In this document: piece by piece, positions 11,973-53,460 of the stretch | How positions within the stretch are numbered: position 1 is the first letter of the stretch | How the letters are laid out: each line of letters starts with the position of its first letter | Assembly: GCA_951406725.2 (NCBI GenBank) | Contig: OX597832.1 | Coordinates: forward strand, 3,720,001-3,784,000 | Length of the DNA stretch: 64,000 nucleotides | Direction: 5' to 3' | Origin: Octopus vulgaris | Taxonomy: Eukaryota | Notes under the pieces: model-generated | Told to the model about the DNA's origin: nothing | The model's input: the letters and a program-made list of their open reading frames with translations, nothing else | The model's database searches: none | Program-made: the position numbers and the translations under genes

Positions 11973-14900
11973 GTGAGTATTATTCAACTTTCAACTAATT
12001 TATTTATTATATCTTATTTATTGCAAAATTTTTACTTGATTGTGTGCAGGTTAGTGAGGAGTACACCCTGTATTGCTATTTAGTATCAATTATGAGGCAG
12101 CACGTTTGAATCTGGTCAAGCGGGTTAAATATTTCAACCTTCAGTTATCATTTAAAATTGTGGTGAATGGAAATATATTTCTTCGGCCAGTATATCTAGA
12201 AAAGTAAGGTAGTGTGCTAGCAGAATTGTCAGCACGCCGAGTGTGATGCTTCGTGGTTTTTCGTCTGTGTAAGTTGAATTTTTACGTTGCCGTATGGTTC
12301 AAGATTGTATTTGTTTTGTGTAATTGTTTTGGATTTTTGCTGTTCGCAGCGGTGGTGTTTTTTTAAGAAATGACAAGGAGGAACATGTATTCTGACCTCA
12401 GTGAGTCGGATCTATCGACTTCGGAAGAAAAACTAGCGAGGGCGGTCAACAGACTGGATATGGAGTTAGAAGGAAGAAGGACTTTCGCAGGAGCAATGAA
12501 ACCAACAAGAGGTTAACTTTCTAAGTTACCGGATGGCCAAAAATGGGTGAAGAAGGTAGGCGGTGACGTGGAATTGTCTCTGCCAAGGAAAACGATGAAG
12601 AGGTTTGAAATAAAAACTATAACATACAAAGTGTTTGCGACAGAAAAAGAAAGATAGATTCAGTCGAAATGGAAACCGCGGAGGAGGCATTATGGTCAAC
12701 AGCGGAGAAGGTAATATTCCTGACAAGAGGAAATAAGTATGGTACTGTCGTTGTGCAGTTCGAGTCGGAGGAAGTCGCTAGGAGGATGGCTGCAAGGACT
12801 ATCAAAACAGAAAAAGTATTCCTTCTGCCCTCGTATCTGGGAAGGAAGACGTCCATGATCAGGGTGGAAGGGATCCCGCGCCCGACATAGAAGCTGAATG
12901 GGTAGTGGGAGCCATCCTCATTGACAATGAGGATAAGGTAGATATACTTTAGGCCACGATTACGGATGAAGGCAACTGGAAGGGAGGAGTATTAGAGATG
13001 AGCGTCCAGGCGGAAACTGAAGTCCTGGAAAGCTTAACAGAAGTAATCACGATGGGAGACATAAGTCTGCGAGTATGGGTGGAGGGCGGAGCTCCTCGAT
13101 GTCTTAAATGTGGCATTTAATGTCACATAAGAGCTAACTGTCCTCCACCAGCGAAGGAACCAACGAAAGAACCTGTAAAAGTGGTAGAAGATACCCGGAA
13201 GCCGCAAGAGGAACAGAGAGAGGCAGAAGACGAAAAGATGGAAGATCAAGCAAAATGGGAAACCAATGGTAAAAGGAAGAAGAGAAAAAGAAAGAAGGCA
13301 AGTTATAATGAACCCCAACCCACCCCAGCACCACCCACACCCTCTTCGTCCCATCCTTCCCCTGCAGACACAAAACCTACCCACTCCCCGCCAATAAGAA
13401 AACAAAAAAGCAGACAAACAGCACAGCTTACAAAATTCCCCTCCCGTTATAGGTTTATTAGACAAGGAAGACGAGGACCTGTTGGAAATATTGAGGGACT
13501 GTGGTGAAGTTGAATTGCCGGATAATTGAGATGAGGAGGAGTGTATGGGGGTGCTATTAACGGGAAAACAAGTGAAAGAACTCGAAAATGAACTGAACAA
13601 TGTTTTTCTGTTAGTAAGAAAGGAAATAGACCCGGATAAGAAAAAAGAACTTGAAAAACAGTATGGGGTGAAAATAAGGGACTAAGTATTTTTCGAAAGA
13701 CTATAAGAGGAGGACATAGGAAAAGAGGACAGGTAAGTGATGTTATCCGATGGGGCGGGTAACATCACTTTCATCTTTTATTTTCACCCTCTCATTTTTA
13801 TCATGTTTTTTTTGCGCCTTATGTCCCCAGTGTGTTGTTTGTTTCTTATCTTTGTAATCCCGTTCTAGGTAATAAAGAAATTAGAATCGTTTGCCCGCCG
13901 AACAGAACGCTTAGCGGCATTTTGTCTCTCACTACGTTCTGAGTTCAAATTCCACCTAGGTCGACTTTGCTTTTCATCCTTTCCGGGTCCATAAAATATG
14001 TACCAGATGAGCACTGCGGTCGATGTCATCAACTTATCCCCTCCCACGAACTTGCTGCCTTTGTATCAAAATTTGAAATCAATATATAAAAAAAAAGTTA
14101 AATATAAGACAAATTATAAGTGTCTAGTCTAGTGTTTCTCAGCCAGGCGGCCTTCTCCTTCTACTAGAAGGGATTTTTTATCCGACTGGTGGAATGTTGA
14201 TTGGGAGTAGAATTGAAAACAATTTTATTTTATAGAAAATATCCTAACTTGTGTATTAGGATATGTTTCCATATTTGGTGGTGTACAATTGACAATGTTC
14301 GTTATAGTCTTCTAAGTTATAGAAACAAAATATAGAGAAATAAACAAATTTAATTCAATTTCAGTTCGCGCAATTGTAAATACAAAAGGTTTTATACTCC
14401 ATAGTGATGGAGTATATAATTCTGCCAAAGTAAAGAATAACTTTTAATTCATTTATTAATATTTAATTCGATGACAGTGTGAAATAAATTAAAACATGTT
14501 TTTCTCACTTGTGGGATGGATTAAACTGATGTCTATAGATATAAAGTGTAACTTAATATAAAACATTGATTTTAGAAATCCCATTCAAACACTTATCACA
14601 GAATAGAATTTTAGTAACTGTTAAAAAAAAAAAACCTTGCATTTATTTGAAAATTAGACTTTTGGCACTCTTAATATGTTATGGGATAACTGATTTCAAT
14701 TATGTTTATGCTACTCATTAAACTTTATTGGAAATATCTTCGAGAGGAAATAGTTATGAAATGTGAGGAAAGAAAATGTTTAACTCGTATGTGACTCAAG
14801 ATTTGGTGTGCCTCCCACACACTTCCTTGACGTCAACGATTTACGTCCTTTTATCAATGCTGTTACTTCCAGTCACACACCTACACACACATATGCAAAC

Positions 14901-17900: not shown

Positions 17901-20900
17901 TTGCTAAATTTCAGATGACATTCTTTGCAATAGAATTCTTGTCAGAAGGAAGAAATAAAAAAAATTATAGCAAGTTATTTTCGTATTTTTAAGAATCTCT
18001 GTTTTATGCAGAACAACTCTAAATGGAAAGAAGAAAATATATTTTACAGTTTGTAAGAACTTTAAAAGAAAATGAAAACCACATTAAATTTTCCAGCAGG
18101 GATTTGTTAAAGAAAATGTAACAGATGGTTTGTGTCAGTCATATATGCTATGGGAGTAGAAAATGTTTGGGCAGAAATTTAATATGTAAAACTTTAAAAC
18201 AAAAAGAAGAAAAACTATTGCAAACTATTTTTAAGATGGAAAAGTCTGTTATTTTACTTTATATATCTTAAAACAATACAACAATTGACTATCAAGAAGA
18301 AGCCATGAGATTATTTTCGTTTTTTACCCTCCTAAAATTCACAAAGCTGTAAATAGATACTTTGCTGCAACTGCGTAGGCACGGTATAACAGACGGTTGT
18401 TTTGTTAGCTTTTGGTGCAGGATTTATTGTCACTAATGGGCGATGACTGCGGTAGATTGTCATCCATCTTATCAAGTTAAAAGGAGAAAGAAAAACTTAC
18501 ATCAACCACTTGACTTCACAAAAAATAACTATAAAACAGGCTACAAATGACTACATTATCTTAGATTAATATCGATAGATAAAATAAAGGTGTTTTAAAA
18601 TCCATCTGTCTGTATTAATATGACAACCGCAAGTTGGCCAAGGATCGTATTCTCCAGAGCCAAAAACTTTTACCCGTTGTATTAAAGCAATCTCTTTCTC
18701 TTCACTCCGTCTCTCCGCCACTAAGTTCACCATCAACACATGTTGTGCTATATATACCAGCCATATAGGTTGCCGCATTGTCTTTGCTTGTCGTGGTATT
18801 ACTGAACCCCTTTCCAGTTATCTTGATAAATTATTATCACCCTGCTCTTACACATTGAGAACACTAACCATGCCTTTAATCTTAATTCTTTCTCTTGTCT
18901 ATTGAACCATTGCAACTCATATTTACCATGGATGTAAAAATCAATGTACGCTAGCATCGTCCGCAGATTTATTCCTTAAACATTTCTTTGACCTTCGCTT
19001 CTCATTAAAACTTAGGATCACCATTTTTTCTCTGCTTAACTGAAGTTGTTTTTACCTTCAAATGTTTTTCCTTCTCTGACGAGTTCAGTCAACAAACTAC
19101 CGCAGAGGTTATGGGTATTAGGACGAGCCCTCAGTTATGCCAATCGCTTTATAGGCCATATAAGGATATTATTCTACTTCATTAGGTTTACCATTGATTT
19201 CTATCAGTTATACGATACAGTCACCGTAATCGGCCTTACTGCACTCTCAGGGACGAACTCATTGCCCTCATTTCAACACTTTCCACCTATCTGGGGAATT
19301 TATACCTACCGTCTCAAAACCTTCTGTTAACTTCCTAGCTATCTATGTTACTATCAATAGCCTTACGTTTCCATCTCTATTCATTGTAAACCTACTGACT
19401 CGCAATCTCACCAGACTGGAATTTGCCTCCTCTCACTCTATTTACACTAGAACTGCTATCTCATCCCATCCCCCACTAAAATCAGTGTACTATAAACACT
19501 TGGATTTTGGATTTTCTTTTCAAATTCGACAAAATCAGTCATTTCTTATTCTGCCTCATTCTGCACTCCAGTGATTCCATGCTACTGACACAGTCTCCGC
19601 TCCTTCTACTCTTAACGAACACATTACAAGACAAAGTTCCTTTCTCGATAACCTTTCACTTGTCCACCTTGCCTTTCTAACGAACCAACCATCGCAATTT
19701 TCATTGCCAGTTCACAGAATCTCTAACTGCTTCTTTCCTACCCCCCCTCTTTTGAAAAAGAGACAACTTTTGTGACTTTTCAGTAGCTTCATTCCCTCCG
19801 GTAATTCTATATACCACTGCTGCTTTTAAAATGTGTTGAAGCTTTTAAAATAACTTCCGGCTTCTTAAACAGTGGGAAATGGTTAAGATACATAAAAACA
19901 GGTGGCCTGAATGTGTGTATATTACGCAATGATTGCATAAATTCATGAAAAATATTGTAACTCTTTAAGATCTTAACTGTAAATTGTATTAAATTAAACT
20001 CTGCCAATCCAGTTTTCAGTGCGCCCCTGTCTTATAAATGCTAAACTCATCATATACCCACGCACGTACACACACACACGCACACACATACAAATGGTGA
20101 GTTTTTGTGTCCTCTCACTCTTTTCTACCCTCTCCTTTCCACCTCTTGTTACAGACTACATTTTGTCCATCTTCTCTCAGGACAATTTTTGTCTTTATAG
20201 TTCCCACCATCCCTTAGAGACTTCATTTTATTCATTCATTAGACTCTGTCCATTTCTTAAAAATCATATTCCAATGCTATCTGACCCTTTTCTCCTCCCA
20301 CCTTGTTTATGTGTGTCTGTGTCATTACGTATGTCTCCTATTCGCCTATTTATACTTACCCCATCTCACTTGATCTGGTTCTCACAAACTCTATGATCCA
20401 CCCTACACTTTTAGTTTTTACCCTCATACAGTTACCCTCACTCATTTATCTTTCCCCCACTTTTCGTTTCCCACATCAACCTCTCTGCATAATTACTATA
20501 CACTACTTAATTCCCAAACCGCAACACTAACATTCTTCTCTGTTTGATGAAGAACAAGCGTCCAAAACGTTAGATTTCGCTTCTTTTTCACGGTCTAAAA
20601 ACAGACACTGAAACTGATTCGAAGACTTAACGAGTCTGTTTTACTTTACTTTTTCAAATTGATACTGATATCTAATGTTGGTTTCAACTTTAGGTACAAG
20701 ACGAGCAAGTTTGGGGGAGCGGCTAAAGTCGATTACATCGACCTCAGTGTTTAAGTGGTACTTGTCTGTCGACGCCGAAAATATGAGAAGCAAAGTCGAT
20801 CTCGGCGGAATTTGAACTCAGAACGTAAAGACGGACGAAATGCCGCTAAGCGTTTCTCCTGACGTGTTAACGATTCTGCCAAGCTCGCCTCCTTATACTT

Positions 20901-23900
20901 ATATCTAATATTACTGCTATACGTAAGGCGGCGAGCTGGCAGAAACGTTAGCACGCCGGGCGAAATGCTTAGCGGTATTTCGTCTGCGTTACGTTGTGAG
21001 TTCAAATTCCGCCGAGGTCGACTTTGCCTTTCATCCTTTCGGGGTCGATAAATTAAGTACCAGTTACGCACTGGGATCGATATAATCGACTTAATACCTA
21101 TGTCTGTCCTTGTTTGTCCCCTCTGTGTTTAGCCCCTTGTGGGTAATAAAGAAATAGGTATTTTATCTACCGTTACGTTCTGAGTTCAAATTCCGCCGAG
21201 GTCGACTTTGCCTTTCATCCTTTCGGGGTCGGTAAATTAAGCACCAGTTACACACTGGAGTCGATATAATCGACTTAATCCGTTTGTCTGTCCTTATTTG
21301 TCCCTTCTGTGTTTCGCCCCTTGTGGGTAGTAAAGAAATAGGAAAGGCGGTGAGCTGGCAGAAACGTTAGTGCGCCGGACGAAATGCTTAGCGGTATTTC
21401 ATCTGTCGCTACGTTCTGAGTTCATATTACGCCGAGGTCGACTTTGCCTTTCATCCTTTCGGGGTCGATAAATTAAGTAACAGTTACGCACTGGGGTCGA
21501 TATAATCGACTTAATCCGTTTGTCTGTCCTTGTTTGTCCTCTCTGTGTTTAGCCCCTTGTGGATAGTAAAGAAATAGGTATTTCTTCCGAGTTTGTGGTC
21601 TGAGTTCAAATACTATCGGGATCGACTTTGCCTTTTATCCTTTCGGAATCGATAAAAAATAAGTACCAGTTGAGCACTGGGATTGATGTAATCGACTTAG
21701 CACCCCCACCTAAATTGCTGACCTTGTGCCAAAATTTGAAACCGATATAACTGCTATGGCTAGATACGGTCTAATTTTAACCAATCATTCATTATCTAAT
21801 CAATCATCAGATACGCTTCTTAAAGAACCAGACATCTCTCACTACTTTAATGATGATAGATATTGCAAAGCTTAAGTATCGGCTGAAATAGTTTTACCCC
21901 TATCATATTGATATATAATTAATTTCGAGTGTTCGGTGAATCTAATATTCATATGAAACGTTTTAAAGTTAATATGAATCTGTGCATTGGTCATTTCAGC
22001 TAGTGTTCCTAAGTTCCAATCTCAACAGAACTCACTTGGCTCCTGAAAAATCGACTATTCTCTCTTCTGCAAATAATGGACTTGTTTAGTCAAAAGAAAA
22101 TAATCAAGTGCGATAATCAATAGCTAACTGCTCTTCTATTTTTAATAAATACGAATTGATGGATTTTCTAAACCTGTTAATTATGTGTGCGGAGTGTGGC
22201 GTACCTTGTGACGTATGTTGTAAGCAATAGATAAATGGTTCGAGCCTCGTCTTTTATTGTTTTTCCTAGAGGGACAAGAGAGACCATGGATGCTGCACAT
22301 CTTCCCTGACTAATTAATAAAAATGAGTAAATAAATGAGTAAGTAAAGTAGGAATAGAAACCAGATTCTAGGATTCGGTTTTGTCGGTAACTTTCATCAC
22401 TCGATAGAGGTAAATACTTAAAGAATAGGTATTACAGTTAGGGGATATATTGGATCTTTTTTTATCTCAAGCTAACCCTAAAATAGTTTTTTTATGGCAT
22501 AAAGAAGTTTTGTAAAGGCGATGTTGTTTTTGGCTGAGGACTTTAAAATCGTAAAATTAAAATACATTCTTTTGACACGGACAAGTTGTGTGTGTGTTGG
22601 ACGAATAGATTGAAATGGTTCATACTTCGTAATGGCATTTAATAAAAGTGAATTACTGCTCTAATTACGTTAAAATATCCTATACAGTGATTAACTTCAG
22701 TTCTATATTTAAGACATGAGAAATTATGTACACTATTTACATTTGACGGATATTTGTCCTCATCTTGTTTGTTAACACAACGTTTCGGCTGATATAACCT
22801 CCAGCCTTCATCAGGTGTCTTGGGGAAATTTCGAACCTGGGTTCTCATTCCTATATGGGGTGGGTGGGGTTAATGAAAGATGTGATGTGTATGTGTTAGG
22901 AATGAGAACTAAGGTTCGAAATTTCCCCCAAGACACCTGATGAAGGCTGGAGTGTATATCAGCCGAAACGTTGTGTTAACAACAAACAGGATGAGGACAA
23001 ATATCTGTCAAATGTAAATAAAGCGATTAATTTGACCATAATTCTTAAACTAAAAAATGTATTGAGTTTTCTGATGGATTTTAACCACGTTTGCATGCAA
23101 GGCATGTGTAAACAGGTTGCTGCCATGTTAACTCTACGAGCAATCCAGGTGTTAGTGATAGGTTCAGTACAAAATCTTTTTAATAAATGATTTTCTGACA
23201 ACTCCTAATCTATTTCTGGTTTCAGTTGTATTAAGATACATAAGTTTCCCATCTGTCGAGGTACGATAGCTTCGCTGTTAAGATAACGTGAAAGCTGTTA
23301 GCTTTCAGTTAACTCTACAAGACAGTGGTCTGAATTTAGCGACAGATCTCCTGCCTTAATGAGAAAGAAAACTATTACCTGAAGTTATCTTTCGTATTTG
23401 CCAGAAAAAAAGAGACAAAAATATTTGTCTTCGACTTATATTTTTTTCTTTTTTGCCGCGTATATTTTAACTTTTAATGCTTCATATATAAAATTGCTGA
23501 CACAGGCATAATCGTAGTTTATCTGGAGTAAAGTACTTTGATCGGGACATCAATTCATGACCTCGATGTTTCTCCCTTGCGAATATATATAGAAAGATAA
23601 AAAGAAAATATTCGAGGGAATTACAGTTGAAAGTATAAACATCACATGCGTGAGAGAGAGAGGGGGGAAAGGAAACTAAGGAAGTTCAACCTCATGATGA
23701 GAACTGACTGATATATCTTTATACGCTAGATATTATGCAATAGTTATATGGTATCATGAGTAAAACTCTTTTGAAGTGGTAGCTTCCTGCTTGGATTCTT
23801 TCCAACAGATGTTATTAAATAAAAAAAATAATAAAATATCCTTGAATTTCCGTCCTGAGACTTAAGCTTAGGGAACTACATTTCCGAATGCTAAAAAATA

Positions 23901-26900: not shown

Positions 26901-29900
26901 TTGATAATTTTCGGAGTGATAGTTGTTTTACTCATATTTGTTGAACATTGGTTGTGTAAAGGGGCCGTGAATGTATGTTCTAAGCCGGGTCACCAATTTG
27001 TAAGGGACCGTACGATGTGAGGTGAAGAGAATGGCTCTTTAGTACCACATCACACAGCTGTTACAATAAAAGAGAAAATTGATAGAACCATTTACTTGCC
27101 AGATGGAAAAAGAAGACAGCAACCGCGTAGAATGATTAAGAAAAGATTTATTGATATGTTAACATGTGTGTCTGTGTGTGCGTTATGTATATAGAATAAT
27201 AGACAAGACGTCATGAGAACAAAATGTATGCGTGTGTGTTAAGTACATATGTGTATGCGTGTGTGTTAAGTACATATAAGGATGGCAATGAAGAAGACAG
27301 TGAAAGAGTCTATAGCCATCGAATTGAGAAGTAAGTTCATAGACACAAGAAAGATGATGAATAACACCAGTTCGTAGTCAACGGTACACGGTAGTTGAAA
27401 TACTGTATCAAGAAGCCGCGACCGTGATGCTGAGCCGGTTACAGATATATGTCATAGTGAAGTCGTGACTGTGATGCTGCTGCCTGGGTCACTTGGTACA
27501 GGAGTTCATGCAGGTTGTATATTCGCTGTTGATCCATGGAAAAATAATTCACGAACAGTGAAGTGTTGGAACCTGGGTGATTTGCTTGCTGAGCTGTGAA
27601 CATAGAGAGATGATGTTGACGGTGTTAAGGACATGGTGGTGACGAAGTCAGAGGTTGCCGTAATGCTGTTGGACGAAGTTGGTGAGTCTCAACGTAGCTA
27701 CTGTGGTGGTGTTTGGCTGGCGTTGTCGCGGAAACTGGCTGTGTCTTTGTGGTCAGTGGCTAGACCTTAGAAGGTCTGGGACCAAAGAATTTCTTTATCT
27801 ACCTATAAAAGGTATACATAGAAGTGACACTACAAGGGACGAACACTTACATTCTTACAAATGGTTTGGGTTGCGATGAAATGGAAACAAAAAATCGAAA
27901 AAATCGGATAAAAGGATGAAATAAAATTATATACAATTAAAAATTTATAAATAATGTTCCGGAATATTTTTTATGGTTAACCCGCTTTGTTTTTAAAATT
28001 TTCTCCTTTGGATTTTTTTTTTCCTTTTTCCTTCTTTTCGCCTTGACCGGCTATGCTAGCACGACCCCATTCATTCTCAAATTCCTTACTACAGATATCC
28101 ATCTTTTCCCGAACGTACTTTGCGACAGGCACTTTTTCTCCAGACGGATCTTTCTCGACAGGTGGAAGTTGAAATAGCTTACCAACCCGAGTCCGGACAT
28201 GAAGGGACTAGTCCCAGTCCCTTTCGCTCGTGTCGTCTATACCGTTTCTTTCAGTATGGCTACTTCGCAGAAAAACGATGCCTTCTTTTCCTTGTTGAAG
28301 GAAGAAGGCGGTACGATCTTAATCATTGACTTAGTCGAGAGCCGTACTCTCTCTGCATCTGACATCAGTTGTTCGACATATGTTATCAACTCTCTCAACT
28401 CCTCACAGTGTACGAAGGCGTGCACGACAGTTTCGCTGGCGCGCCCGTACCTCGGACATGTGGGGATGGTGTCAAAACCGTGTCTAGACAACATCTCTCG
28501 AACCGGTAAGGCCGATCGGTAGCACAACCAAGCCAAGAATTTCTGGAAGTCATCCAGGTACCTCGGCCGGAATGTCCTTCCGAACAGGTTGGTCAGTTGC
28601 TCCTCATCGAAGCTCAGAGTCTCCCCCAGGACATCGTCGGAATTATGCTCTACCAACCCTCTATAAAAATCTGCAGTGGTAACCTCGCTGCCGGTATTGC
28701 TCGTCCGAGAGAACAGAGTGAGTGCTTGTCTGCACTCCCTCTACAATTCTCCCATCCTAGGTCTCCGCTTGATCCATGTACCTAAGTCCCTGAGGGACTT
28801 CAGTTGTGGAAAGAGTTGCTTGGCATGCGATGACCACACCTGCTCACCATCTAAGTAGCACCAGAGATGTCTCAGCCTCAGCGCGTACTTGTGCATCATC
28901 AGCCAAGGCATCCCCAGCCCACCCTTTAACAGATTTTGGCAGCAGATGGAGCACCTCACGAGTGGCATTTTCTCTTCCCACAAAAAGCGAAAAAGGATCC
29001 GTTCCAACTTGGTCAGCCACAAACCGGGGCAAAGCACGACGGTTAGGCGGTAGGTTATCACCGATGCTATAAACACTTGTGCAACCTCAGCCCTTCCTTG
29101 CCGAGTTGCAAGCCAACTGATTTGTCCTGGTTAATTTTTGCTCCTGCCACCGCTTCGCATCCTTTGATGCTGTCTTCTACACGAGGTATCTGCTCTTCAT
29201 CAGACACGGTGATGGTAACATCATCCGCATATGCCGTCGCACTTTTACCGTAATACAAATCACGCGGGTCTGCTCCCATAGTTCCCAACCTCCGCAGCAG
29301 CGGCGCAAGAGCCAATACATACCGCAGCGGGGACAGGGGGCAGCCCTGGCGAACCGAACGCTCGATTACGAAGGGGTTCGAGAAGAACCCATTTACCCGG
29401 ACGACAGATTCGATGTTGCCATTCATAGCTTCGATCCAGCCTCGGAAAGTTGGGCCCAATCCGACCGCCCGGAGGACCGTCGCCAGATACCGATGGTCGA
29501 CCCTATCGAATACCTTAGACTGGTCTAAATTCACCAGTGCCCCACTTTTGCCAGGAATTTTACCAATCAACTGTATGGTGTAGCGAATGAGGTGAAGGTT
29601 GTCATGTATTGTCCTTCCTGGGATGGCACATGTCTGTGCCTCTCCTACCAGGTCGCCCACGACAATCCTCACTCTTTTGGCTAGCACCTTGGCCAAAAGC
29701 TTAAACTCTGTGCTTAGCAGAGTTATGGGCCGAAAATTATTAATGTTATTCCCCTTGTTAGGGTCCTTTTTGATCAGTGTCACCACTCCTCAGCTTACAG
29801 ATTTGGGAATTCTCCCATTCTGCTGCCAATTCGCATATAAATAGGACAGTACGTTCCCGAACAAATCTGGCATACTTTTATAAAATTCATAAGGTAGACC

Positions 29901-32900
29901 ATACAATGCCGGCGACTTGTCCCCGGGGCAATCGGAAAACACCTCTATAACCTCCTCGGCCCTTTACAGTGCTCAGCGTCACGCGTCGAAAGACGCGGGC
30001 CGCCGGCCAGAAAATGCCGGAGTGCATCCCCATGGTCTAGCGCCCCGCTCCTCCCGAACAACGTTGCAAAGTTCTTGCGAAAGCCTTGCGCATCTCTTCT
30101 TGTCCTTGGATCTCCTGTCCATGCTCGTCTACCACAGACCTTCTCTTAGCCTCCATGCCACGTCGGGTTTCTTCCGAGCGATCCCACCCTGTAACATTGA
30201 TTCCCTCGCGGCCCAGTTCACGTATTTTAGCCCGGACTCTGCATCCTTCGTGTTTAACATTGAGGTGTCGGTCCAGGGCCGATCTTGCTGCCAACACTTG
30301 GGATGCAGAGCCCATACTCAGTGCCTCTTCAAATGCCTTAACTAATTCCCTTTCTACTCTAGTCTGCTCTAGACTTAACTGCTTGCTAAATCTAATCGAC
30401 TCAAGTCGAATAGCTCATTTTAGGGTACTCCACCACCGGTTGTTAATCACAGAGCCGGTTAGTGACCTCATTACTAACACATTAATCTGGCTACAGTAAG
30501 TTTCGCAATCCAATAGGGACTTGTTTAACTTCCAATAGCCAGATCTCTGTCTATGAACCTTATCTATATGCAGCCTACACGTCACTAATTTTTGATCCGT
30601 ATAGGGTACATAGGTAAACTGCGAACAGCTTAAATTAGACTTATCTCTAGCATTAACTATTATCCTGACTACATAAGACCTGATAGATCCGTAGTTATTA
30701 GACCAAATCCACATTGGAACGCTCGGATTATCAAGTCTTTATCGATCTGCCAGCCTAAATCGCTTCAGTAGATCGACGAGGTGTGAGTTACACTTCCTAA
30801 CATTCGAGCCTACGCTATCCAGGCGTGCATCCAGAATAGCGTTAAAATCACCTAGCAAAACTAGTGTCCTTGATGTCACATGAAAGTTCTCCAGGCGTCG
30901 ATAAAACTCATCCAGTTTGCGTGGCGTGCCAGGCGCGTAGATGCCAACCAGCCTGAAGGCCTTACCTCTGTATGTCAGATCCAGAACGACCGGCTCGCCT
31001 TCTAGGCCAACGAAGATCGTACGTGTCTGCAGGGCCAGGCTTTTCCGGAGCAAAACTACAACACCTCTTCTCCCCCGGCTAGGAGAAATGATTTTCTCAT
31101 AGTCTAGAGAGTTGAGAAGGCCTGCAGCTTGTCTAGCCTGATCTCTGTAGCAACCATAATATCAATTCTGTTTGACCTGAGCTCGTCGAAGCGGCAAGCC
31201 TGCTTCTTCTTCGAACCCAGGCCACGGACATTTAAACACGCAATGCATAGCGCAGCCATATCAAACACGAAAAAAAGGAAATTCGAGCTTACCTGCTCAT
31301 TCATCATTCGTGTGGTGGTTGGGTTATTCTCAATATTTCTAGGACAAGTTCCTCACCTCCTTTCTTTCGTACAAAAATGGTTCAACCGACGGGTTAAATA
31401 CCTTCGGTAGTTTCTTCAATTCTGCTATTTCTTTTGGGTGCCTGTTTTTGAGTTCGTTGTATAGTTTTCGGGAAATTTTTCCCAACGTCACTGGGCTCAT
31501 CTTATTGTCATTGACATATAGGGATGACCCTATCCAGGTATTTATTATTTTGTATGCGATTGTCGCAGTATCTTCTCTTTCAGGAATATCGATTGTCACC
31601 GACATAAATTAGTTTTCTTTCTTTTCCTTTTCCCTTCAGTTCGGGTTTCTTGATAATTTTGGTTTTGGGACCGCTTCCTGTGTATTGGTGGGCGACTCCA
31701 TTCTTTTGGTTCTCTTACGTGACACCGTCAGGAAGTCCATATTTTCAGCTGACGGTGTCACAACTGACTCTGGTTTCTTGGGATTTTTCCCCAGTAATGG
31801 AGGCGGTCACTTTCTGTGTAATGGCCTTCTTGGCCGTAAGCGCCACTTCTCCATCTTTCTCCTTAAGGTCATTTTTACTGGTAGAGGCGGTCACTCTCTG
31901 TGTAACGGCCTCCTTGGCCAGAAGTGCCGCTTCCTTATTTTTCCCCTTGGGGTCAGTTTTACTAGTGGAGGTGATCACCTGCTCTGTCACAGTCTCCGTG
32001 GCTGGGGGACCGTCTCTTCGTTTTTCTCTTCCTCCTCCTCCTCTGCTTCCTTGTCCTTCATTTTTTGTGGGGCATTTTGACCTCAGGTGCCCTTTTTTCC
32101 ACAATCAAAGCACCTGGGTCTTCTCCCCTCCTCATGTACTGCCAATACTGATTCCTCTACATGTATCGTCTCGAGTAAACTTTCCAAATCCAGACTTGTT
32201 GCTTGTGCTAAGATCTCCAGAGTTTGACCCCACCAATTCTGTGGAGCGTCTCTGGAGATCTGAATGATATTTATTTTGTCCTCTCTCTTGTAGAGGAGTG
32301 TGGAAACGATCCATGCCACCTTCACCTCTGTTTTTAATCCTTATCCGGGATGTTCTGCGTCCCAGATATAGAGGCAGTAGCGTGATGTTGCCACATTGCA
32401 AGGTTCTAGTTGAGAACTCTCTTGCCTTCTCAATCGACTCGAACCTTGCTTCAATGGTGGCGTACCTTGTACCTCGGGTTAGGTACTTTATTTCGTTCAT
32501 CACCGACCCGAGACACCTTTCAACTATACTTTCTTCAAAAACTTTAGTCTTTTCTTTTCTACATCATATGATTTGTATATAATTGTCTTTTCTTTTGTCG
32601 TGTTCCTTATTTCACTTGGTAGTGTTATGTTGCTTTCACCGTTTTCTTCGGTAAGCATTCCATAGTAGGCCTGAATGTCTTTCTTTTTCAATATAATTGT
32701 TTCACGTCCACCAACAGCGGCGGAAAAATTATTATTTTTTTTTTTTTCTATTTTGTTCTTCTACAGAAGACATTTTTTTTTTTAAATATTAAAAAAAGAA
32801 AAATATTCAAAATTCCACAATTTTTGTTCCGAAAGGAAACGCGGTTCAAACTTAACTGCAAGCGGTAAACACAATTTATATATCCTTCCCCCTTGGGAGA

Positions 32901-35900
32901 GGATAACAGTTCTCAATATTAACACAGACAAGAAATTTTAACAACGTTTCCCTTACGAGAAACCAACAAGCACAATGTAACAATTCCTGCAAGCAGGCAA
33001 CAATTATAACGACTAACCTTCAAGGTAAACACAAGCAAATATATCACGTAAGAATGTGAGCGAACGACAGTCTGGAACCAAAGACCTCGAAAGAGGAAAA
33101 GCTGAATTTTTATAAGGAACTGTAGGCTCAAAACAGGGTAGAGAACAGGCTGTCGAACGTGATCGTATTTAGGGCCTGCAACTTGTTATACACTACAGAT
33201 GGTGCGACAGAGTAAGAAACTAATTGCACCAATACCAACCAATCAGTGTAGTAGACACAATGGGATCCAAATAGCTGCCAAAAGCTAGCTTTCCCTGCTA
33301 CGTTCGAATGCACGTATATATAATAAATGGGATAGAGGAATTACAACTGAGTCTACGCTACAGTCGTGGGCTTAATGGTTGAATTACGAATGGTTGTTGG
33401 ATAACTTCGATTGTTAGATTGGTGATCGCTGGAACTATGGTCCATTGAAGTGTTAAATGATAGAAAATGATTTTAGGCTAATGTCTGGGGTCAAATGAAA
33501 AATGGTCGGTTGAATAATGATTTGTAAAATGATGTAAGTTAATTTAAGGAATTTAGAATAAATGATTGTCAGATTAATCCTTGTTGGACTAATCATTGTT
33601 AGATTGATGATTGTTGAACAAATGATTGTTCTATTGATAATTGTAAAAGAAATGAGTGTTGGATTAGAGCTTGTTAGACTAATGATTGTTGAAGTGACTA
33701 TAGTTGGACAGATTATTGGTGCACTGACTATTGCTATGCTAATGATTGTTGGACCCGTGATTGTTGGAATAACTATTGTTGGACTACTGATGGTTTGACA
33801 AGCGATCGCTCTACTGTTGGTTGTTGGATTAATGATGGATGGAGCAGTCATTGTTAAATTGATTTTCGTTGGAGTAATAGTTGTCAGACTAATTTTCATT
33901 GCGCTAGTCATTGGACTAATGATTTTTATAAAAACTATTGTTAGATTGATAATCGTTGGACTAATGATTGTTGAACTGATAATAATTGTTGGTCAAATGA
34001 TTGTTAGACTGTTTATTGCTTTTGACAAATGATTGTTGGAGTGATTATTGTTTTTTACTTATGATTATTGGACTAATGGTTATTAGACTCATGATTATTG
34101 GACTAATGTTTGTTTGACTAATTGTTGTTCGATGGATGATTGTTGAACTGATGATTGTAGGATTGTTGGACTGATGATCATTGAACTTAACATTTTTGGA
34201 GTAGTCTTATTAATCCAACTGCTACTGTTAGATAAATGATTGGGTATCTAATCCATATTGGAACAATGATTGTTAAATTAGTGGTAATCATTTGAATAAA
34301 GATGACTGGACTAGTTATTGTTAGAATAAACAATGTAGTAATTATTGAATTAATGAGCGTCCTTGTATTAGATTACACAAGTAATGAGTGTTGATGTGAC
34401 AATTGTGGGACTAATGATTGCTAAACATATGATTGTTGGAACAATGATGATTGAACTGATACTTGAATGACAGCTGTTTACTGGACTAATGATTGTGCAT
34501 TTACTGATTGTTGGTCTGATGATTGTTGAACTAGTGAGTGTTGACTAATGATTAGTTAATTAGAATTTTGTTGGACTGAAGACTGTTAGTTGGATGATTA
34601 ATATTAGATAATGGGTTGTGCACTAATGATTGCTGGACTAATTATCTTTGGACTGATGATAGGTTTTTATTTTTTTGTTTTGGTAATTGTAAACTAATTG
34701 TTCACCTGGGGATTGTTAAACTAATGAGTGTTGCATCAAGGATTTTAGACTGGATAAGATTTATCTAATGACTGTTACATAATGATTTTAGGGTGAATGC
34801 AAATTAACTATTGACCAGTGGACTAATAACTATTGTTTATCAGATGAATGGTGAACTAATGGTTTATGGAATGAATGATAGATTAATGATTGTTGAATTA
34901 AGGATTTTGGGAATGATGATTATTAGACTAACAACTGTTGGACAGTATGTTACTCATGTATATAGTTTCAGTACCTTGTCTTTCTACTGTAGAATCTTCT
35001 CTATCCTCCACTATAGTCTCCTTTTTTTTTTTACCTCTATTCACCTTCCTCTACCCTCACCTGTATCATCTGTACCCTCCTCCCTCCACAATCTTCATCT
35101 TCCATCAACTGTACACTCTCCTTTTCTCTACCTCCAACTCTAAATTCTCTTCTACCCTTATTTTCACTGCATTATCTATTCTTCTACTCTCAGCTGTAAA
35201 GTCTCCCTCTTTCCTCTGCCCTATAGCATCCCATTCTTCTTCCTTTCGCTATAAAGATACCTTATCTTTTCCCCTCTTCAACATCCACATTCTCTTGCCC
35301 CTCCTCACCCACACAACACACTTTCTTTGCTTCTTCCTTCTACTGTATTCACTACCTTTCTTTCCTCTCTTCTTTTATTTCTAATCTTCCTCTCTTTAGA
35401 CTTCAGCTCATTCCTCACCAATACATTTATTTTATTTTCCACCCGTTCACTCCTGTTTGCTCCCTCCCTATATCCTTTTTACTATGGAACTTCAGCTATT
35501 TCATTCACAGTGAAATATTAATGATATTATATAACAATTTTTGCGTTTAGATGTTTAAGTGTTTAAATGGGGCCATTTTACAGAAAACTTCTTACTTAAA
35601 TGCTACTCTTTAAGTGTAAAAATTTGCTTAGAATTTTATCTTTGAAACCTAACAAATCCTATTTGCTAAATGATTCATAACGAGTAGTCTGACCTTGTTC
35701 TTGATACTTCCGGAAGTTTTGATATCTCAAACTTTGAGACCCTCCCACTGTTTATGTAGGGTCATGTCTCACTTGCCTTTCCTGCTTCTTTGATTTTGAT
35801 GACACTCACAGCTGCAAACCATTTGACAAATACGAGTGGTTTCAAATAAAACGGAAATAGAAAGGAAATTAACTTTCTTTTTATCACGTGGTCAAAGAGT

Positions 35901-52857: not shown

Positions 52858-53460
52858 TTAGCGAGCTGGCAGAATCGTTGGCACTTTGGACGAAATGCTT
52901 AGCGGTATTTCGTCTGCCGCTACGTTCTGAGTTCAAAATCCGCCGAGGTCGACTTTGTCTTTCATCCTTTCGAGGTCGATTAAATAAGTACCAGTTACGC
53001 ACTGGGGTCGATATAATCGACTTAATCCGTTTGTCTGTTCTTGTTTGTCCCTTCTGTGTTTAGCCACTTGTGGGTAGTAAAAAAATAGGTATTTCGTCTG
53101 TTGCTACGGTCTGAGTTCAAATTCCGCCGAGGTCGACTTTGCCTTTCTTTCAGGACCGATAAATTAAGTACCAGTTACGCACGGGTCAAGGTAATCGACT
53201 ATTCCCCTCCCCCAGAACTTCTGGCCTTGTAGAAAGGATTATATTAGGCGGCAAATTGGCAGAATCGTTAGCACGCCGGGGAAATGCTTAGCGGCATTTC
53301 GTCCGTCCTTACGTTCTGAGATCAAATTCCGCTGAGGTCCACCTTACCTTTCATCCTTTCGGGGATCGATGAAATAAGTACCAGTTGAGCACTGGGGGTC
53401 AATGTAATCGACTATCTCACCACCACTAAAATTTCAGCCTTTGTGTCTTTAATAAAAAGG
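52858..53460 (+). mobile_element. Cluster of three Meta/MESC-like SINE units
   Basis: A long-tail unit ends at 53087 and is followed by an internal restart GGTATTTCGTCTG (53088-53100, repeating 52904-52916). A separate short-tail copy starts at about 53246. Confidence 0.85.

What the first reader, a model, noticed from the sequence alone, without database searches (positions are those of the whole stretch)
20925..21749. A SINE subfamily that appears to insert site-specifically into the head of its own SINE family
Seen: the long-tail SINE ends ...TAAAGAAATA. At 21157, 21577 and again at 53088 the next bases are GGTATTT.., the same internal position of the SINE head (GCTTAGC^GGTATTTCGTCTG) upstream of the B box. 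The downstream pieces differ in subtype and decay: long-tail at 21157, old short-tail at 21577, another short-tail variant at 53088. That argues against one fixed dimer being copied. No long-tail copy in the window occurs outside a SINE host. Known: Tx1-clade LINEs are often target-sequence specific, and SINEs borrow 3' tails from partner LINEs. Inference: a SINE acquired a Tx1-type tail and is targeted to its own family's tRNA-like head, building tandem arrays.
Basis: partly seen in the sequence, partly recalled or inferred. Interest (0 to 1): 0.78.

Follow-up and report, generated by a model that had tools for sequence, protein, structure and literature searches.

The report
SINE that nests inside older relatives
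A very abundant short jumping repeat (a SINE) usually lands at a short GGTAT-like sequence in ordinary DNA, but about a third of its ends sit at one fixed point inside another copy of its own family, likely because it inserts there and its matching front end replaces the older copy's front end.

Summary
The junction is real and common. Genome-wide, 31,047 of 95,640 long-tail ends are followed in register by the SINE's own GGTATTT site.

Targeting is not SINE-specific. Most insertions lie in unique DNA (60 of 88 young units), with target-site duplications (TSDs) of about 15-16 bp that start at a short motif, H^GGTAT.

The nested cases are later insertions into older copies, not a copied dimer. 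Hosts come from several subfamilies and scatter across the tree. They are about twice as diverged as the unit in front (28 of 34 pairs), and the host's older TSD often encloses the whole array (19 of 34), as in this window.

The motif alone predicts 4-5% of insertions in heads, against about 30% seen. Most nested copies have only one head, mostly donor-like, which points to a homology-assisted join. Long arrays also grow by local duplication.

The tail matches 3' ends of L1/Tx1-type LINEs, but the exact partner was not found and empty alleles were not obtained. Verdict: new variant of a known kind.

The parts
20907..20920 (+). Left TSD of the old short-tail host SINE; encloses the whole array
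   Evidence: 12 of 14 identical to 21744-21757
20926..20973 (+). SINE head with A-box-like motif (motif recalled); matches the long-tail consensus exactly, so likely donor-derived
   Evidence: 0 of 48 differences
20974..21156 (+). Unit 1: young B-subfamily body plus long tail, begins at GGTATTT
   Evidence: 3 of 116 core differences from the long-tail consensus; B pattern has 2,834 exact copies
21157..21340 (+). Unit 2: older long-tail unit in register
   Evidence: 8 of 117 core differences; differs from each neighbour at 16 positions
21341..21392 (+). GGAA plus a second complete head (rare junction type, 2 of 352)
21393..21576 (+). Unit 3: long-tail unit
   Evidence: 7 of 117 core differences
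21577..21743 (+). Headless body and tail of an old short-tail (S3) SINE, the original host
   Evidence: 17-22 of 117 differences from all four subfamily consensuses
21744..21757 (+). Right TSD of the host
52861..53087 (+). Long-tail SINE in register on a short-tail host
53088..53237 (+). Headless short-tail host body
27789..33069 (-). Decayed L1/Tx1-type LINE with a related 3' tail and a 15-bp TSD; its target starts TCTTT, so it is probably not the partner
   Evidence: tblastn; tail score 50 vs shuffle maximum 32; TSD

Best explanation
This is a high-copy SINE with an L1/Tx1-LINE-type tail whose copies sit at a short H^GGTAT-like motif, mostly in unique DNA with TSDs of about 15-16 bp, and about a third of whose tail ends lie in register at the same motif inside other copies of its own family, likely through later target-primed insertion in which the new copy's head pairs with and replaces the host's head. 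Shown: the motif, the TSDs, and that hosts are older and heterogeneous. Inferred: a Tx1-type endonuclease nicks at the motif; the cDNA's head anneals to the homologous host head, which makes these insertions complete more often and leaves one donor-like head with no new TSD; repeated rounds add unrelated units, and later unequal exchange or slippage adds near-identical ones.
For: Motif from the upstream TSD copy: G55, G58, T79, A69, T57 of 89, with G at -1 in only 3 of 89; TSDs in 89 of 179 unique-ending arrays against 0 of 179 in the null. 31,047 of 95,640 tail ends are in register. Hosts from at least three short-tail types plus long-tail copies; 28 label changes on the tree against 28.7 in shuffles. 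Hosts are as diverged as free copies (S1 0.091 vs 0.101, p=0.73), and the unit in front is less diverged in 28 of 34 pairs, more in 4. Host TSD around the array in 19 of 34, null 0-3; its mismatch is 7.9% against 2.7% for long-tail monomers (p=0.0008) and 11.5% for free short copies (p=0.21). Hosts keep host-type bases 13-15 nt from the junction and more often keep an intact GGTAT (29 of 34 vs 22 of 69). The motif alone predicts 3.9-5.3% in heads. Classical nested copies with a kept host head are 4-6 of the 216 full-headed arrays scored, within that range, while 45-47 of 51 host-ending arrays have one head; best-fit donor fraction 0.9-1.0 over 33 loci. Antisense insertions, where homology cannot help, number 3 against 51 sense (p=0.005).
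Against: No partner LINE with the same tail and target was found. No empty allele was seen, so head replacement rests on divergence only. In-register heads are more diverged than monomer heads (0.056-0.085 vs 0.030-0.049), so some host sequence remains. The sample is almost all from contig C1 and centred on search hits, which favours young copies. The motif matrix treats positions as independent; counting only exact HGGTATTT sites lowers the excess to about 3-4-fold by my estimate. The antisense test rests on 3 events. Long-into-long pairs show only weak age asymmetry (16 vs 6 of 25, p=0.052).
Confidence: 0.68

Rival explanations
1. The partner endonuclease, or the local structure or chromatin of the host, recognises the SINE head itself more strongly than the 5-bp motif suggests; head replacement is only a side effect.
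For: The cut lies exactly at the loop-stem border of a predicted hairpin (RNA fold, z=-2.57). Hosts are somewhat better conserved at +6 to +9 (p=0.023) as well as +1 to +5. Tx1 families are often target-preferring (PMC4494074, passages).
Against: Unique-site TSDs of the B subfamily show no conservation beyond +5. Classical two-head insertions are no more common than the motif predicts. The hairpin uses G-U pairs that would be weaker in DNA.
Confidence: 0.12
2. Read-through RNA guides the choice: transcripts run past the tail into the master copy's own flank, and that extension pairs with the nicked target, so masters that sit in a SINE head seek SINE heads.
For: Target class differs by subfamily: C48 has 7 GG vs 13 TA/TG flanks, the others 61 vs 9 (p=1e-5), and C48 nests in only 6 of 33 cases against 48 of 80 and 33 of 87. 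TSD positions 1-2 mismatch more often (11-12 of 89) than positions 3-12 (1-4). 3' target pairing raises R2Ol efficiency (PMC6530143, passages).
Against: The position 1-2 mismatches go both towards and away from GG. No signal at +6 to +9 in unique targets. Different partner LINEs at different times would give the same subfamily pattern. RNA ends were not examined.
Confidence: 0.1
3. In-register arrays arise at the DNA level: ordinary insertion followed by deletion between the two heads, or ectopic conversion and tandem duplication.
For: Arrays of four or more units often hold runs of units 0-3 differences apart, against a median of 15 for random pairs. One array duplicates 29 bp of flank. Heads carry some excess divergence.
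Against: Two-unit arrays differ by a median of 12, close to random pairs. Old short-tail hosts cannot come from duplicating the unit. Random deletion would give about half donor head, which is 5.8 log-likelihood units worse than 0.9. Host bases resume within 13-15 nt of the junction. It also leaves the sense excess over antisense unexplained.
Confidence: 0.08
4. One or a few fixed dimer masters were copied as a whole.
For: One TSD pair encloses the whole array in 19 of 34 cases.
Against: Hosts form no clade, the closest two differ by 8.9%, and the enclosing TSDs are older than long-tail insertions.
Confidence: 0.02

Closest known systems
SINEU-3 and Tx1-Mar of crocodilians (PMC4494074; passages seen)
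   Same: A SINE moved by Tx1-type LINEs with a preference for one site in another repeat.
   Different: SINEU-3 is almost exclusive to a Mariner element (77 of 88 truncated copies). Here the preferred repeat is the SINE's own family, the preference is about 30%, and the host head is usually missing.
Alu-into-Alu hotspot at position 133 (PMC2836564; abstract and one Results section seen)
   Same: Self-insertion at one nucleotide, in sense orientation.
   Different: About 16,000 sense events, at an A-rich linker, with both host parts continuing exactly. Here about a third of all tail ends are nested, at a non-A-rich motif in the promoter region, mostly with one head.
SINE-derived satellites of squamates and tandem Dip/B1 SINEs of jerboa (PMC10702118; passages and Discussion seen)
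   Same: Tandem units of 150-180 bp class with a longer end unit that reaches the SINE terminus.
   Different: Those are attributed mainly to duplication or recombination, or are full-length multimers. Here the unit border is the element's own insertion motif and short arrays hold unrelated units.
R2 with target-matching RNA ends (PMC6530143; passages seen)
   Same: Homology between RNA and target helps integration.
   Different: R2 is an autonomous, strictly site-specific element. The passages seen cover 3' pairing; joining by 5' homology in R2 and chimeric L1/Alu replacement are recalled, not read.
Octopus tRNA-derived SINEs OR1/OR2/OK (named in PMC4824008 and PMC4758252 passages; original paper not seen)
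   Same: Probably the same broad family; this is recalled resemblance only.
   Different: No sequence comparison was possible, and no target preference was mentioned in the passages seen.

Membership tests
tRNA-derived SINE | Short, non-coding, dispersed at high copy with TSDs | tested here: met
   232 bp; 95,640 tail ends; TSDs in 89 of 179
tRNA-derived SINE | tRNA-related head with A and B boxes | tested here: inconclusive
   A- and B-box-like motifs visible (consensus recalled) and the ends pair, but ARAGORN and Rfam found no tRNA
tRNA-derived SINE | Pol III transcription | not tested
   No RNA runs were laid
SINE mobilised by a Tx1-clade LINE | 3' tail shared with the LINE | tested here: met
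   Scores 49-52 vs shuffle maxima 29-32 for three LINE 3' ends; CR1-like control 14. L203 has APE and RT domains
SINE mobilised by a Tx1-clade LINE | LINE belongs to Tx1 rather than L1 proper | tested here: inconclusive
   Best PDB hits are L1 ORF2p (1e-41) over R2 (1e-19); homologues carry no clade name; the Tx1 label rests on recalled motifs; no RT tree built
SINE mobilised by a Tx1-clade LINE | Partner LINE shares tail and target | tested here: inconclusive
   Related tails use other targets: (TCTA)n/(TA)n, ^GAR, ^TCTTT; no exact partner
Target-specific retroelement | Preference: more than 20% of flanks of one repeat type (threshold from a cut-off passage of PMC4494074) | tested here: met
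   32.5% genome-wide; 26 of 88 young B units
Target-specific retroelement | Near-exclusive use of one target | tested here: not met
   162 of 230 arrays end in unique DNA
Fixed dimeric SINE | Downstream halves form one co-aged clade | tested here: not met
SINE-derived satellite | Homogeneous tandem units within a locus | tested here: inconclusive
   Met in several arrays of four or more units, not in most two-unit arrays
CORE / Meta / Deu SINE superfamilies | Diagnostic central domain | not testable with these tools
   No reference sequences were available from a tool

The most novel reading that the evidence does not exclude
The SINE steers itself onto its own kin by sequence homology. RNA read through from the master's flank sets a target preference that each subfamily inherits, and head-to-head pairing completes the insertion. 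Young subfamilies thereby overwrite the promoters of tens of thousands of older copies and seed SINE satellites.
Probability: 0.2. Interest if true: 0.8.

Novelty: new variant of a known kind. Interest (0 to 1): 0.52.

Why it matters
If the homology-assisted join is right, this genome holds tens of thousands of natural events that report on the least understood step of LINE/SINE integration, the 5' join. It would also give a concrete route from dispersed SINEs to SINE-derived satellites, and show a young subfamily taking over the heads of older ones while avoiding new genomic sites. In practice such chimeric arrays would inflate SINE family counts and distort repeat ages; a recent octopus annotation lists 893 unclassified recently active SINE families (PMC13282606), though I did not test a link.

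Tried and rejected
Empty alleles: contigs of five public runs laid on the window array and on a second locus were swamped by repeat copies, and no listed contig spanned either site, so there is no verdict. Partner LINE: none of the 30 best RVT_1 loci showed the long tail at a LINE end; two hybrid tail patterns returned one SINE and 14 places, mostly of the CC family; ten CC-family loci showed no Tx1-like coding region joined to the tail. A first test for a kept host head missed decayed heads and was replaced. The first age test used the long-tail consensus for all hosts and is biased; one search replaces it. The subfamily-target link was confounded by loci chosen for non-G flanks and was redone without 17 arrays. 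No stable tail hairpin (z near 0). A Dong/R4 partner was considered from recall and dropped when the tail matched APE-type LINEs. Earlier scan findings: none.

Full report
Observation. Four copies of the long tail lie in the window. Three are followed by GGTATTT at the head register and one (21340) by GGAA and a full head. The array 20926-21743 reads head, unit, unit, head, unit, old headless short-tail body, and one 14-bp TSD encloses it. The units are 3-8 of about 117 core positions from the long-tail consensus, and the last body is 17-22 from any subfamily consensus. The simplest history is one old SINE that received three younger insertions.

Genome-wide counts. The window lies in G000, 2.8 Gb. 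The 33-nt tail has 48,995 exact copies, 10,027 of them followed by a non-G. A 20-nt tail end occurs 95,640 times, and 31,047 of these (32.5%) continue into the SINE's own internal sequence by a strict pattern, so this is a lower bound.

Sample. I analysed 1.29 Mb: the window plus stretches of contig C1 centred on hits of three searches. It holds 247 arrays with 352 tail junctions: 179 unique, 152 in register at GGTATTT, 9 at a second register (AGAAACG), 12 other. Arrays within about 300 bases of a stretch end were left out. Without 17 arrays from loci chosen for a non-G flank, 162 of 230 arrays end in unique DNA. For young B units, 60 of 88 are followed by unique DNA and 26 by the head site; in 60 arrays lacking both search patterns, 41 end in unique DNA and 15 at the head site. 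The element is therefore not confined to SINEs.

Target motif. TSDs were found in 89 of 179 unique-ending arrays (null 0 of 179), most often 15-16 bp, starting right after the tail. The upstream copy gives H^GGTAT, with G rare at -1. The motif differs by subfamily: B uses GGT in 28, 30 and 32 of 33 sites, whereas C48 uses N-R-T-A-T and prefers TA/TG flanks (p=1e-5). This could reflect different partner LINEs or different RNA 3' extensions; I could not separate them.

Nested or dimer. Short-tail bodies behind a long unit belong to at least three types. They are as diverged as free copies of the commonest type (0.091 vs 0.101) and more diverged than the unit in front in 28 of 34 pairs. On a tree of 103 bodies the 34 hosted ones need 28 label changes against 28.7 for shuffles; support is rough and mostly low. 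The host's TSD encloses the array in 19 of 34 cases (null 0-3), and its mismatch rate (17 of 216) is above that of long-tail monomers (28 of 1037) and not distinguishable from free short copies (27 of 235). Host-type bases resume within 13-15 nt of the junction, and hosts are better conserved mainly at +1 to +5. A fixed dimer is rejected.

Why so many nested copies. A matrix built from unique-site TSDs puts 3.9-5.3% of expected insertions in heads, against about 30% seen. Counting only exact 8-nt sites shrinks this to about 3-4-fold (my estimate). Classical nested insertions, with host head and TSD kept, number 4-6 among 216 full-headed arrays, which fits the motif. The excess consists of arrays with one head (45-47 of 51). 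That head tracks the inserted unit rather than the host (best donor fraction 0.9-1.0 over 33 loci), though it is somewhat more diverged than monomer heads. Antisense insertions at the GGTAC site number 3, fewer than the motif ratio predicts (p=0.005). I infer that the cDNA's head anneals to the host's head and replaces it. This step is not shown directly. The cut also falls at the loop-stem border of a predicted hairpin, which supports a structural rival.

Array growth. Adjacent units in two-unit arrays differ by a median of 12 positions (37 arrays), near the random median of 15. Several arrays of four to seven units hold runs only 0-3 apart in front of an older last unit. Independent insertion seeds the arrays and local duplication likely extends them.

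Partner. The tail aligns with the 3' ends of three LINE copies whose coding regions are of L1/Tx1 type (scores 49-52, shuffle maxima 29-32), and not with a CR1-like control (domains; PDB; homologues). One such LINE is in the window, with a 15-bp TSD. The closest tail (score 84) belongs to a roughly 450-800-bp element with no coding region found and a ^GAR target. No LINE with the SINE's exact tail and target was found. Tx1 rather than L1 proper is a recalled assignment.

Literature. Closest cases are SINEU/Tx1-Mar (PMC4494074, passages), the Alu self-insertion hotspot (PMC2836564, abstract and one section), SINE-derived satellites (PMC10702118, passages and Discussion) and R2 target pairing (PMC6530143, passages; PMC7265360, abstract only). 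An octopus repeat annotation (PMC13282606, first third read and main text searched) has no hit for 'target' or 'nested'. PMC8967140, PMC4824008 and PMC4758252 (passages) did not mention this behaviour. Searches listed no description of it. Repbase, Dfam, the 1994 octopus SINE paper and PMC4795812 were not available, and no supplements were opened, so a repeat-library entry could already note the junction. The octopus attribution is my recall of the repeat family.

Verdict. A real, genome-wide self-nesting hotspot, built on a weak Tx1-type motif and likely on head homology; not exclusive targeting. New variant of a known kind, interest 0.52.

Noticed in passing
G000:C21:42753776-42757475 (L224, L228): A second element with a very similar tail (ends in CC, target ^GAR, TSDs about 15-21 bp) forms 144-bp tandem arrays whose unit starts at an internal ATGAG of its own 3' region, which resembles the same self-nesting.
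   Followed up: partly
L203 and L080 (G000:C1): L1/Tx1-type LINE family inserted in (TCTA)n/(TA)n microsatellites, stacked head to tail at L203.
   Followed up: partly
window 13300-13882: Unidentified non-SINE element with a Tx1-like tail end, joined to an old short-tail SINE at head position 15; no similar sequence in the sample.
   Followed up: partly
9 junctions in the C1 sample, e.g. C1:59853, 1824569: Second insertion register at AGAAACG in the head, possibly tied to a tail variant ending AAGAA.
   Followed up: partly
short-tail subfamilies S1-S3 across the sample: Their 3' junctions start with AATAT or ATTAT, and the S1 tail looks related to the long tail, so the older subfamilies may also have Tx1-type tails.
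   Followed up: no
window 20728-20892, minus strand: An older family member lies head to head with the array, about 35 bp away, forming an inverted repeat; the Rfam miRNA hit is far below its gathering score.
   Followed up: no
L138-L160: A young CR1-like LINE ending in (ATT)n with many open frames of about 949 aa genome-wide (clade label recalled).
   Followed up: no
G000:C1:1775677 and C1:27946267: Unusually long flank duplications (about 45 and 29 bp) around arrays.
   Followed up: no
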